IMG/VR virus record: IMGVR_UViG_3300037504_000266 | Span: 1 to 60,509 of that record | Length of the DNA stretch: 60,509 nt | Strand: one strand, 5' to 3' | DNA from: a virus | Taxonomy: Duplodnaviria; Caudoviricetes | Part shown: positions 24,563-24,647 of the stretch, piece after piece | Position numbering within the stretch: the stretch's first letter is position 1 | Layout of the letters: each line of letters starts with the position of its first letter | Notes under the pieces: generated by a model | Databases searched by the model: none | What the model saw: the letters and a program-made list of their open reading frames with translations, nothing else | Told to the model about the DNA's origin: nothing | Translations under genes and position numbers: made by a program

Positions 24563-24647
24563 TGGACCTGGCCGGTACTGCCCCGGCGTCCGCGCGGTGT
24601 CGCTGGCACGCAACGCCAGCACCGCCCGTCGATGCTACTTCAGGCCC
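24563..24647 (-). ncRNA. Mini tmRNA-like RNA (tRNA-like domain only, no mRNA-like domain)
   Basis: GGGCCUG AAGUAGCAUCGA CGGGCGGU GCUGGC GUUGCGU GCCAGC GAC ACCGCGCG GAC GCCGG GGCAGUA CCGGC CAGGUCC A; G3:U70 pair and A73. Confidence 0.75.

What the first reader, a model, noticed from the sequence alone, without database searches (positions are those of the whole stretch)
24563..24647. Phage-encoded mini-tmRNA: an intact alanine-accepting tRNA-like domain with no mRNA-like domain
Seen (minus strand): acceptor stem GGGCCUG/CAGGUCC with a G3:U70 wobble and discriminator A. It has a stem-less 12-nt D-loop ending UCGA and helix 2a CGGGCGGU/ACCGCGCG (one G.G mismatch). The GAC linker leads to a T arm GCCGG-GGCAGUA-CCGGC. 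Established: this is tmRNA TLD architecture, G3:U70 is the AlaRS identity element, and the D-loop/GAC region binds SmpB. From memory, the D-loop and GGCAGUA T-loop resemble alphaproteobacterial-type tmRNA. Where about 250 nt of pseudoknots and tag ORF should be, there is only a 6-bp hairpin (GCUGGC/GCCAGC), giving 85 nt in total. CCA is not encoded (A-CAU). I know MLD-less tmRNAs only from some protist mitochondria. Inference: this could be an SmpB/AlaRS/EF-Tu decoy that blocks host trans-translation, or a rescue RNA that adds Ala without a degradation tag, protecting phage proteins.
Basis: partly seen in the sequence, partly recalled or inferred. Interest (0 to 1): 0.9.

Follow-up and report, generated by a model that had tools for sequence, protein, structure and literature searches.

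The report
Phage mini-tmRNA, alphaproteobacterial type
This 85-base phage gene encodes only the alanine-accepting, tRNA-like end of the bacterial ribosome-rescue RNA (tmRNA), a form already known from one mycobacteriophage, and it probably interferes with the host's rescue and tagging of stalled ribosomes.

Summary
ARAGORN and the curated Rfam cut-offs all miss it.

It does match covariance models I built without it. One, from 11 mini-tmRNAs of other viral contigs, scores 58.2 bits (E 3e-12; next best in the window 12.7). That model hit none of 53 true tRNAs in four loci, and nothing at E <= 0.01 in 295 kb of 48 unrelated phage loci.

A model built from the element alone finds the published 'TLD only' tmRNA of mycobacteriophage DS6A (25.9 bits).

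The odd GGCAGUA T-loop is real. 34 of 45 viral pattern matches are complete mini-tmRNAs with this loop. The same arm occurs once in 110 of 301 sampled Alphaproteobacteria and in 0 of 101 genomes of another proteobacterial class.

The D-loop fits that class as well: it lacks GG, like 9 of the 10 GGCAG-type minis, the element among them, whereas 21 of 21 UUC-type minis have GG.

It is a new member of a known kind, and this scan has found the kind before on other DNA. Its function is inferred, not shown. The likeliest role is an Ala-charged, SmpB-binding competitor of host tmRNA. No close relative and no RNA data exist.

Special here: a longer arm, an adjacent half-copy, and a one-piece copy of what in Alphaproteobacteria is a two-piece RNA.

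The parts
24563..24647 (-). Mini-tmRNA (called E2 in this report): a complete tRNA-like domain of 85 nt with no tag-coding part
   Evidence: Sequence. The minimum-free-energy fold equals the proposed structure. R3 58.2 bits, E 3e-12. R2 23.6 bits. R1, built from E2 alone, finds the DS6A TLD-only tmRNA.
24641..24647 (-). Acceptor 5' strand GGGCCUG. G3 pairs with U70 at 24566.
   Evidence: 30 distinct mini-tmRNAs of other viral contigs use the same acceptor pair.
24629..24640 (-). D-loop of 12 nt with no stem. It ends UCGA and has no GG.
   Evidence: The D-loop lacks GG in 9 of the 10 GGCAG-type minis, E2 among them, whereas 21 of 21 UUC-type minis have GG. It resembles the D-loop of alphaproteobacterial ssrA genes.
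24591..24628 (-). Helix 2a (8 pairs, one G.G mismatch) enclosing a 6-bp hairpin with the 7-nt loop GUUGCGU and a 3-nt GAC bulge. This takes the place of the whole mRNA-like domain.
   Evidence: In 30 aligned minis, helix 2a is 91.3% paired and 4 of 5 pairs change on both sides. The inner segment is 28 nt here, against 13-24 nt in 28 of the 29 others.
24571..24587 (-). T arm: 5-bp stem with the 7-nt loop GGCAGUA, preceded by the GAC linker at 24588-24590
   Evidence: The same loop occurs in 34 complete viral minis and in 110 of 301 sampled Alphaproteobacteria.
24563..24570 (-). Acceptor 3' strand CAGGUCC and discriminator A. The next bases are CAU, so CCA is not encoded.
   Evidence: Only 6 of 30 other minis encode CCA.
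24484..24534 (-). Half-copy (E3): an acceptor-like 5' strand, a D-loop and the helix 2a 5' strand, paralogous to E2. It shares an 11-mer at 24507-24517 and a 7-mer at 24484-24490, and has no T arm.
   Evidence: Neither R2 nor R3 lists a match at E3 at E <= 10. With the 3' half of E2 it gives the weak Rfam tmRNA_permuted match at 24507-24597 (19.1 bits against a cut-off of 47).
24846..24904 (-). tRNA-like element E1, starting 2 nt after the stop codon of the DUF7448 gene. It has a canonical UUCAACC T-loop, A3:U70 and no UCGA motif. It is not a mini-tmRNA.
   Evidence: R2 10.1 bits, E 2.9. R3 gives no hit. Its motif occurs twice in the window and 0 times in 100 shuffles.
24311..24355 (-). GC-rich hairpin of about 15 pairs followed by UUUAUA, at the end of the ORF-poor gap. 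It resembles an intrinsic terminator.
   Evidence: The consensus scan did not list it, because the T run is short.
25891..25918 (-). Sigma-70 consensus promoter (12 of 12 matches) that could drive the leftward early operon holding the gap
24907..25281 (-). DUF7448 gene, directly upstream on the same strand

Best explanation
The element is a phage gene for a tmRNA cut down to its tRNA-like domain: a 'TLD-only' or mini-tmRNA, modelled on the alphaproteobacterial type of tmRNA.

Shown here: the fold, the family membership and the alphaproteobacterial signature.

Inferred, step by step:
1. It is transcribed with the early leftward operon, as part of a roughly 600-nt non-coding stretch.
2. Host RNase P and 3' trimming enzymes cut it out, and the host CCA-adding enzyme adds CCA.
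3. Alanyl-tRNA synthetase charges it with alanine through G3:U70 and A73.
4. SmpB and EF-Tu bind it.
5. Because it has no tag template, it competes with the host tmRNA for SmpB and for stalled ribosomes. This dampens or blocks trans-translation and the degradation tagging of proteins made during infection.

I put identity at about 0.9 and the competitor mechanism at about 0.5.
For: Structure and statistics:
- The structure is exactly as described.
- R3, built from 11 minis of other viral contigs and without this element, scores it 58.2 bits, E 3e-12, against a next best of 12.7.
- In 31 sources R3 found 30 matches, all mini-tmRNAs, and none of the 53 tRNAs that ARAGORN calls in L381, L388, L429 and L396.
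- R3 found nothing at E <= 0.01 in 295 kb of 48 unrelated phage loci.
- R1, built from the element alone, finds the DS6A TLD-only tmRNA at 25.9 bits, E 5e-6 in 1 kb.

Family covariation: over 30 sequences, 97.4% of cells are paired, 13 of 17 pairs change on both sides, and 0 of 500 shuffles reach the observed values.

Class fit:
- 34 of 45 viral matches to the GGCAGUA pattern are complete minis, where about 3 matches were expected by my rough estimate.
- The D-loop lacks GG in 9 of the 10 GGCAG-type minis, this element among them; 21 of 21 UUC-type minis have GG.
- The T arm pattern occurs in 110 of 301 sampled Alphaproteobacteria, against 3 matches for the reversed control pattern.
- It occurs in 0 of 101 genomes of the class of a Paraburkholderia and in 0 of 5 single genomes, that Paraburkholderia among them.

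Coding and context:
- The five ORFs that overlap the gap match no Pfam or PHROG family.
- The element lies on the same strand as its flanking genes, downstream of a perfect sigma-70 promoter.

Function: PMC4131195 and PMC11915505 (passages read) state that the DS6A form, or a similar molecule, inhibits the endogenous tmRNA in E. coli, perhaps by titrating SmpB (Mao et al. 2009; that paper is not held).
Against: - The curated detectors do not call it. ARAGORN finds 0 genes, even at 80% thresholds.
- RF00023, RF02544 and RF00005 give no hit at E <= 10. RF04321 gives only 19.1 and 13.8 bits against a cut-off of 47.
- R3's training set was retrieved with a pattern taken from this element's own motifs. 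About 20 of its 77 positions agree by construction.
- No close relative of this element or of this phage was found, so there is no covariation for this lineage or for its unusual long arm.
- The element lacks the A-rich bulge and small hairpin that most relatives carry inside helix 2a.
- No RNA data exist: one DNA run only.
- Alanylation and SmpB binding are untested.
- The phage encodes no SmpB.
- The host is unknown.
Confidence: 0.55

Rival explanations
1. Tag-less rescue RNA. The Ala-charged mini-tmRNA enters stalled ribosomes with SmpB and accepts the nascent chain. The ribosome is then freed by drop-off or peptidyl-tRNA hydrolysis. No degradation tag is added, so truncated phage proteins are spared and ribosomes are recycled.
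For: It rests on the same structural evidence as the best explanation. CDS-less tmRNAs of mitochondria and plastids are thought to help with incomplete mRNAs (PMC11915505, passage read). Minis sit inside phage tRNA arrays in L381, L388 and L396, as expected for a translation helper.
Against: The only experiment I could find cited reports inhibition of tmRNA, whether or not the molecule can be charged (PMC4131195). Without a stop codon, release has no known efficient route. Nothing here separates rescue from blockade.
Confidence: 0.2
2. Decaying relic. The phage once captured an alphaproteobacterial permuted ssrA gene. E2 and the half-copy E3 are rearranged leftovers with no present function.
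For: The 3' half of E2, a 28-nt spacer and the 5' half of E3 lie in the order of a permuted gene and give a weak RF04321 match. E3 has lost its T arm. No relatives are available to show conservation.
Against: All 25 proposed pairs of E2 are intact apart from one G.G. The D-loop and T-loop both fit the GGCAG class. E2 scores 58.2 bits, within the range of the other GGCAG-type minis (46.9-79.2) and above every UUC-type mini in the same search. A profile of 7 alphaproteobacterial ssrA genes finds nothing downstream of E3, so there is no relic of a tag region.
Confidence: 0.08
3. Processing punctuation. The tRNA-like shapes E1 and E2 serve mainly as RNase P and RNase Z cleavage signals that cut the early polycistronic transcript, for example to end the DUF7448 mRNA. 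The small RNA itself would have no role.
For: E1 starts 2 nt after a stop codon. Two tRNA-like elements (E1, E2) and the half-copy E3 lie in one transcribed gap. A second E1-type element lies in another non-coding stretch at 11365-11431.
Against: A cleavage signal does not need G3:U70, the UCGA motif with helix 2a, or a tmRNA-specific pairing of D-loop and T-loop types. All of these are kept in E2 and across the family.
Confidence: 0.06
4. Decoy for a host defence or nuclease that senses or uses tmRNA or SmpB-like modules, rather than an inhibitor of trans-translation itself.
For: Defence systems with SmpB-like domains predicted to bind tmRNA have been described (PMC11090510, passages read). 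A phage anti-CRISPR protein associates with tRNA and tmRNA fragments (PMC11662646, passages read).
Against: This is purely an analogy. I looked for no such system in a host, because the host is unknown.
Confidence: 0.05
5. attP remnant: a copy of the host ssrA end kept for integration.
For: Phages often integrate into ssrA.
Against: The complete record holds no tyrosine integrase and no resolvase (record 100% complete by CheckV). A 25-mer of the T arm and acceptor has 0 exact matches in 185,579 species genomes. The element is a whole domain in one-piece order, whereas alphaproteobacterial genes with this T-loop are permuted, so it cannot be a plain copy of a contiguous host segment.
Confidence: 0.02
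6. An odd decoding tRNA-Ala. The 7-nt hairpin loop reads U-UGC-G, which is an alanine anticodon in an anticodon-loop-like frame, so the RNA might read GCN codons.
For: The loop GUUGCGU has U at position 2, UGC at positions 3-5 and a purine at position 6. This agrees with the G3:U70 identity.
Against: The arm has 14 pairs plus a bulge, not the roughly 10 stacked layers of a tRNA. None of the 29 other aligned minis has such a loop. The tRNA model and ARAGORN find nothing. The chance of any alanine anticodon in this frame is about 1 in 128 by my own count, and I noticed it after the fact.
Confidence: 0.02

Closest known systems
'TLD only' / 'Standard, no CDS' tmRNA of Mycobacterium phage DS6A (JN698994, about 28477-28558; Hudson, Lau and Williams 2014, PMC4131195; PMC11915505)
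   Same: Both are phage-encoded and about 80 nt long. Both have a 7-bp acceptor stem with G3:U70 and A73, a stem-less D-loop ending UCGA, helix 2a closed by a short insert, a T arm joined directly to the acceptor 3' strand, no tag frame and no encoded CCA. The model built from this element alone finds DS6A at 25.9 bits.
   Different: DS6A has the canonical UUCGAUU T-loop and a D-loop with GG. This element has GGCAGUA and no GG. The insert here is a longer, perfect 6-bp hairpin with a 7-nt loop. R3 does not list DS6A at E <= 0.001. The hosts differ: Mycobacterium for DS6A, unknown here but with an alphaproteobacterial signature.
Two-piece (permuted) tmRNA of Alphaproteobacteria (Rfam RF04321) and the full two-piece tmRNAs of marine phages (Melnitz and pelagimyophages, PMC9004378)
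   Same: It has the same GGAC-stem-GGCAGUA-stem T arm (110 of 301 genomes) and a similar D-loop. Viral contigs L289 and L327 carry full permuted tmRNAs with this T-loop and ANDN... tags.
   Different: Those RNAs are made of two chains from a permuted gene and carry a tag frame and pseudoknots. This element is one chain in standard order with no tag. It scores 19.1 bits against a cut-off of 47.
Mitochondrial tmRNA of jakobids (Rfam RF02544) and the CDS-less plastid tmRNAs (PMC11915505)
   Same: They also lack a tag-coding domain.
   Different: They are organellar and derive from a permuted gene. RF02544 gives no match at E <= 10.
Uncharacterised mini-tmRNAs of viral contigs retrieved here. The nearest are L288:5-81, L376:6697-6767 and L396:1680-1757.
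   Same: They share the acceptor pair GGGCCUG/CAGGUCC, a GGCAG-type T-loop and a D-loop without GG. L288 also carries two tRNA-like domains in one phage.
   Different: They are 71-78 nt long with a short insert. None has an adjacent half-copy. The phages are unrelated to this one at the protein level, apart from a methyltransferase.

Membership tests
tmRNA tRNA-like domain, TLD-only form | 7-bp acceptor stem with G3:U70 and discriminator A73 (alanine identity) | tested here: met
   In the 34 complete GGCAGUA-class minis the 5' strand was not part of the search pattern, yet all start GGG opposite U70.
tmRNA tRNA-like domain, TLD-only form | No D stem; the D-loop ends UCGA and runs straight into helix 2a; a GAC or GGAC linker leads to the T arm | tested here: met
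   It aligns column for column with 29 other minis.
tmRNA tRNA-like domain, TLD-only form | T arm of 5 bp with a 7-nt loop, stacked on the acceptor, with a canonical UUCGANU loop | tested here: inconclusive
   The stem and its geometry are met. The loop is GGCAGUA, not UUCGANU. This loop is the normal one in 110 of 301 sampled Alphaproteobacteria and in 34 viral minis, so it is a class variant and not a defect.
tmRNA tRNA-like domain, TLD-only form | No tag reading frame or pseudoknots between the strands of helix 2a | tested here: met
   Only 28 nt lie between the strands, forming a single hairpin.
tmRNA tRNA-like domain, TLD-only form | Significant score against a family model built without the candidate | tested here: met
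   R3 58.2 bits, E 3e-12. R2 23.6 bits, E 0.0014 (R2 is not specific against tRNAs). Caveat: R3's members were fetched with a pattern that shares about 20 fixed bases with the candidate.
tmRNA tRNA-like domain, TLD-only form | Charged by AlaRS; bound by SmpB and EF-Tu | not testable with these tools
   Needs bench work. The window encodes no SmpB.
tmRNA (Rfam RF00023, RF04321, RF02544; ARAGORN) | Reaches the curated score cut-off or is called by the program | tested here: not met
   ARAGORN also failed to of the 8 minis in L288 (two), L376, L381, L388, L396 and L429. The eighth, in L426, was absorbed into a 285-nt call. These tools were not built for this form.
Two-piece (permuted) tmRNA | Gene order T arm, acceptor 3' strand, spacer, acceptor 5' strand, D-loop, followed by a tag frame | tested here: not met
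   The order is present across the 3' half of E2 and the 5' half of E3, but at only 19.1 bits against 47. ARAGORN finds no tag, and the profile of 7 alphaproteobacterial ssrA genes matches nothing downstream of E3.
tRNA | Cloverleaf with D arm and anticodon arm | tested here: not met
   RF00005 gives no hit at E <= 10. ARAGORN finds 0 genes.
attP / ssrA fragment | An integrase in the phage and identity to a host ssrA end | tested here: not met

The most novel reading that the evidence does not exclude
E2 and the half-copy E3 may be a snapshot of 'un-permutation'. The phage captured a two-piece alphaproteobacterial ssrA gene. It then built a one-piece tRNA-like domain by duplicating the segment that holds the 5' acceptor strand, the D-loop and the helix 2a strand, and placing the copy upstream of the acceptor piece. 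The two 5' halves, E2's own and E3's, can both pair with the single T-arm and 3' acceptor half. E3 does so through 6 pairs with one bulge, again giving G3:U70. The transcript might therefore switch between a closed mini-tmRNA and a two-piece-like fold.
Probability: 0.12. Interest if true: 0.7.

Novelty: new member of a known kind. Interest (0 to 1): 0.45.

Why it matters
The standard finders do not see tmRNA-like genes of this cut-down form, so they are missing from phage annotations. In print I found one phage example (DS6A), and a 2025 database that counts 9 'Standard, no CDS' sequences in all.

This element shows that the form also exists in an alphaproteobacterial style. That style has its own matched pair of D-loop and T-loop types. 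It is a single-chain copy of a domain that in Alphaproteobacteria with this T-loop is assembled from two RNAs.

If the RNA blocks or replaces trans-translation, it is a small and easily tested phage tool against a pathway that is essential or important in many bacteria. It is also a natural minimal substrate for AlaRS, SmpB and EF-Tu.

The T-loop type may hint at the host of an otherwise orphan phage. The hint is weak: phage Melnitz carries an alphaproteobacterial ssrA while infecting a gammaproteobacterium (PMC9004378).

Tried and rejected
Searches for relatives that found nothing useful:
- blastn ('distant' mode) of the 641-nt gap against 50,697 phage records gave no match.
- A 17-mer in viral contigs gave 7 matches, all inside coding sequence of unrelated contigs, and about as many as I expect by chance.
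- 48 loci around DUF7448 relatives showed no blastn or nhmmer similarity and no R1 or R3 hit.
- The replication initiator has no relatives in viral contigs.
- The best DUF7448 homologue among 5.8 billion proteins is 61% identical, so the phage is an orphan.
- TerL is at most 35% identical to that of any isolated phage, and the helicase has no match.
- A metagenome pattern gave 5 matches, all GC-rich coding sequence, with R1 at 17 bits or less. The same pattern in viral contigs gave 0.
- In genome contigs the exact 25-mer gave 0 matches. This taught me nothing about the host tmRNA.
- blastn of two GGCAGUA-class minis against isolated phages gave no match.

A mistake: the pattern had a wrong gap length, so the element itself would not have matched it. 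Its 29 hits were all chance, with 3 or fewer of the 5 T-stem pairs formed. One search was the corrected scan.

Ideas I rejected:
- The stretch downstream of E3 as a relic tag region. nhmmer with 7 alphaproteobacterial ssrA genes aligned only E2's own T arm and its 5' acceptor and D-loop, at 0.9 and -0.2 bits.
- ARAGORN at 80-95% thresholds gave only spurious calls, none of them at E2.

Sequencing runs: no RNA holder is listed. The only run is a DNA run that may be the source of this DNA.

Tools and sources not available:
- Mao et al. 2009 is not held.
- Supplements are closed. Supplementary Table S2 of PMC11915505 may list further CDS-less phage forms that I could not see.

Claims that something is not in print rest on these searches: 'mini-tmRNA' gave 0 papers; 'GGCAGUA' with 'tmRNA' gave 0 papers; two multi-term searches.

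A slip in my notebook: entry 3 says 37 complete GGCAGUA-class minis. The recount is 34 of 45.
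Full report
**Observation.**
- a 7-bp acceptor stem with G3:U70;
- a 12-nt D-loop with no stem, ending UCGA;
- an 8-pair helix 2a with one G.G mismatch;
- a 6-bp hairpin with a 7-nt loop, followed by a GAC bulge;
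- a GAC linker;
- a 5-bp T stem with the loop GGCAGUA;
- the acceptor 3' strand, then discriminator A, then CAU.

RNAfold returns exactly this fold for the 85 nt: -45.3 kcal/mol, z -2.02, and 4 of 200 shuffles fold as well. It keeps the fold inside the full 621-nt gap.

**Standard detectors are silent.**
- ARAGORN finds no tRNA or tmRNA in the window, nor at E2 when its thresholds are lowered to 80%.
- At gathering scores Rfam finds only a type II hammerhead, elsewhere in the window.
- RF00023 (tmRNA), RF02544 (mt-tmRNA) and RF00005 (tRNA) give nothing at E <= 10.
- Only the permuted-tmRNA model RF04321 gives weak local matches. One, at 19.1 bits, covers 24507-24597. The other, at 13.8 bits, covers 24629-24870. 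The cut-off is 47 bits.
- These two matches join the T arm and 3' acceptor of one element to the 5' acceptor and D-loop of the next element downstream.

**Context.**
- The window is a complete 60.5-kb IMG/VR virus record (CheckV 100%).
- It has no tyrosine integrase, no resolvase and no SmpB.
- The element sits in a roughly 620-nt gap on the same strand as its neighbours. Upstream is a DUF7448 gene. Downstream are a small ORF, an O-like replication initiator and a DnaB-like helicase.
- A perfect sigma-70 consensus promoter lies upstream at 25918-25891.
- The five ORFs that overlap the gap match no Pfam or PHROG family.
- The gap also holds E1 (24846-24904). E1 is tRNA-like, with a canonical T-loop, A3:U70 and no UCGA motif.
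- It also holds E3 (24534-24484), a paralogue of the 5' half of E2 without a T arm.
- The gap ends in a GC-rich hairpin followed by UUUAUA.

**No close relatives.** Sequence, synteny and pattern searches in the phage, viral-contig, metagenome and genome collections returned only chance matches. The phage is an orphan, so nothing can be said about conservation of this particular lineage.

**A known kind.** Earlier notes of this scan pointed to the 'TLD only' tmRNA of mycobacteriophage DS6A.
- I checked the literature. [quoted passage not shown] It adds that a similar molecule, chargeable or not, strongly inhibits tmRNA, perhaps by titrating SmpB.
- PMC11915505 (passages read) counts 9 'Standard, no CDS' unique sequences and repeats that the DS6A form inhibits the endogenous tmRNA in E. 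coli.
- A covariance model made from E2 alone (R1) finds the DS6A element at 25.9 bits, E 5e-6 in 1 kb, with the same architecture.

**A wide family in viral contigs.**
- A generic pattern (GGGG..TCGA..TTCGAWT..CTCCA) returned 100 stretches holding 115 matches. 69 of the 115 have at least 6 of 7 acceptor pairs and at least 4 of 5 T-stem pairs, and most are 78-81 nt long.
- A stricter filter left 29 distinct sequences. I dropped 3 whose match started upstream of the true 5' end. The remaining 26 plus DS6A formed alignment A2, from which I built model R2.
- R2 also hits real tRNAs at 21-32 bits. This result therefore shows tRNA-likeness only.

**The GGCAGUA class.**
- A pattern with this T-loop returned 45 stretches, where I expected about 3 by chance (my rough estimate).
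- 34 of the 45 are complete minis with 7 of 7 acceptor pairs and 5 of 5 T-stem pairs. They make up 10 distinct sequences.
- The other 11 lack a nearby 5' strand. ARAGORN reads two of these loci, L289 and L327, as full permuted tmRNAs with ANDN... tags.
- R3 was built from 11 minis aligned by R2: the 10 of this class plus a second, UUC-type mini in L288. E2 was not included.
- R3 scores E2 at 58.2 bits, E 3e-12, against a next best of 12.7.
- Across 31 sources R3 found 30 matches. All are minis, and none is among the 53 tRNAs that ARAGORN calls there.
- In 295 kb of 48 unrelated phage loci R3 found nothing at E <= 0.01.
- Caveat: the retrieval pattern fixes about 20 of R3's 77 positions to E2's own letters.
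- L396 and L376 were not in R3's training set. They carry GGCAGCA and GGCAGAA loops and score 67.9 and 46.9 bits.

**Same acceptor, both classes.**
- The corrected pattern for E2's acceptor pair gave 74 matches in 73 stretches. 50 have a perfect T stem, and these collapse to 30 distinct minis.
- Contig L288 carries two minis 1.2 kb apart with this same acceptor, one of each T-loop class.
- Among 31 minis, E2 and DS6A included, 21 of 21 with a UUC-type T-loop have GG in the D-loop. Only 1 of 10 with a GGCAG-type loop does. E2 follows the rule of its class, which argues for a folded, working elbow and against decay.
- On the 30-sequence alignment A6, 97.4% of cells pair, 13 of 17 pairs change on both sides, and 0 of 500 shuffles reach this.
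- Helix 2a was not a selection criterion for most rows. It is 91.3% paired, and 4 of its 5 pairs covary.
- The acceptor and T-stem pairs were partly enforced by my patterns and filters, and the alignment was fitted to the model.

**Alphaproteobacterial signature.**
- The T arm pattern (GGAC, 5 nt, GGCAGUA, 9 nt, UCCA) occurs exactly once in 110 of 301 genomes drawn from the class of a Caulobacter. The reversed control pattern gave 3 matches. One positive genome, G245, is unpublished.
- The pattern occurs in 0 of 101 genomes of the class of a Paraburkholderia and in 0 of 5 single genomes, that Paraburkholderia and one genome each of four other phyla.
- Four tmRNAs from Myxococcota, Actinomycetota, Acidobacteriota and Chloroflexota have UUCGAYU loops.
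- The seven alphaproteobacterial genes I inspected are permuted. Their D-loops resemble E2's.
- The host inference is still weak. Other phyla were barely sampled, and phage Melnitz carries an alphaproteobacterial ssrA in a gammaproteobacterial host (PMC9004378, passages read).

**How E2 differs from its relatives.**
- At 85 nt it is the second longest of the 30 aligned minis.
- Its insert is a perfect 6-bp hairpin stacked on helix 2a. Most relatives have an A-rich bulge and a small hairpin there.
- Its 7-nt loop happens to read as an alanine anticodon loop. No relative shares this, and I treat it as coincidence.
- CCA is not encoded, as in 24 of the 30 others.
- Only here does a half-copy follow: E3 lies 127 nt downstream and keeps the UCGA-helix 2a 11-mer. 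The three other near-repeats found lie 529-644 nt away, two of them lack the motif, and they look like chance.
- The 5' strand of E3 could also pair with the 3' acceptor strand of E2, through 6 pairs with one bulge. This is the order of a permuted gene.
- No tag region follows E3.

**Mechanism.**
- Shown: the fold, the family and the class.
- Inferred from established tmRNA biology (recalled, not tested): RNase P and 3' processing, CCA addition, alanylation through G3:U70 and A73, and binding of SmpB and EF-Tu.
- The published inhibition by a similar molecule makes competition for SmpB and stalled ribosomes the likeliest role. Tag-less rescue ranks second.
- The processing-signal, relic, defence-decoy, attP and decoding-tRNA readings are less likely, for the reasons given under each rival explanation.

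**Novelty.** This is a new member of a known kind. This scan has reported the kind several times on other DNA. The features not in print, as far as my four searches show, are the alphaproteobacterial GGCAG-type class of one-piece minis, its matched D-loop, and the E2-E3 tandem.

Noticed in passing
window 38622-38688 (+): Complete type II hammerhead ribozyme: Rfam RF02276, 52.5 bits against a cut-off of 37, E 5.8e-8.
   Followed up: no
window 24846-24904 (-) and 11365-11431 (-): Two tRNA-like elements of a different design. Each has a short acceptor, a GGCAGG motif, a hairpin and a long T stem with a UUCRACC loop, followed by A-CU. The shared motif occurs twice in the window and 0 times in 100 shuffles. 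Outside the window's own DNA, it occurs in only 1 of the 433 loci fetched by then. They have no G3:U70 and no UCGA, and R3 does not hit them.
   Followed up: partly
window 24484-24534 (-): E3 is a half-copy of the mini-tmRNA's 5' part. After its helix strand come the letters GCAAAC-U-GACACC. This resembles the start of alphaproteobacterial ANDN tags with one extra base, and would read Ala-Asn-stop. The profile search gives it no support, and it may be chance.
   Followed up: partly
window 24430-24435 (-): A perfect TATAAT hexamer preceded by TG lies inside the E3 region, upstream of the small ORF at 24021-24287. It could be an internal promoter for the replication genes. It has no good -35 hexamer, and the scan did not list it.
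   Followed up: no
L288:5-81 and L288:1317-1392: One viral contig carries two mini-tmRNAs 1.2 kb apart with the same acceptor stem. One has a GGCAGUA T-loop and a D-loop without GG. The other has a UUCGAUU T-loop and a D-loop with GG.
   Followed up: partly
L288:500-700: About 200 bp of tandem GGTCGN-type hexamers lie between the two mini-tmRNAs.
   Followed up: no
L381:8468-8546, L388:4011-4090, L396:1680-1757: In these contigs the mini-tmRNAs sit inside or beside phage tRNA arrays of 21, 26 and 3 tRNAs. ARAGORN does not call them. In L426 it builds a 285-nt 'tmRNA' with an unconvincing tag on the 3' end of a mini.
   Followed up: partly
31 mini-tmRNAs: D-loop and T-loop types go together: GG with UUC-type loops in 21 of 21, and no GG with GGCAG-type loops in 9 of 10. 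The alphaproteobacterial host genes I inspected do have GG (CAGG) with GGCAGUA, so the rule may be particular to the phage minis.
   Followed up: partly
window 25891-25918 (-): A 12-of-12 match to the sigma-70 consensus with a 16-nt spacer, at the head of the leftward early genes.
   Followed up: no
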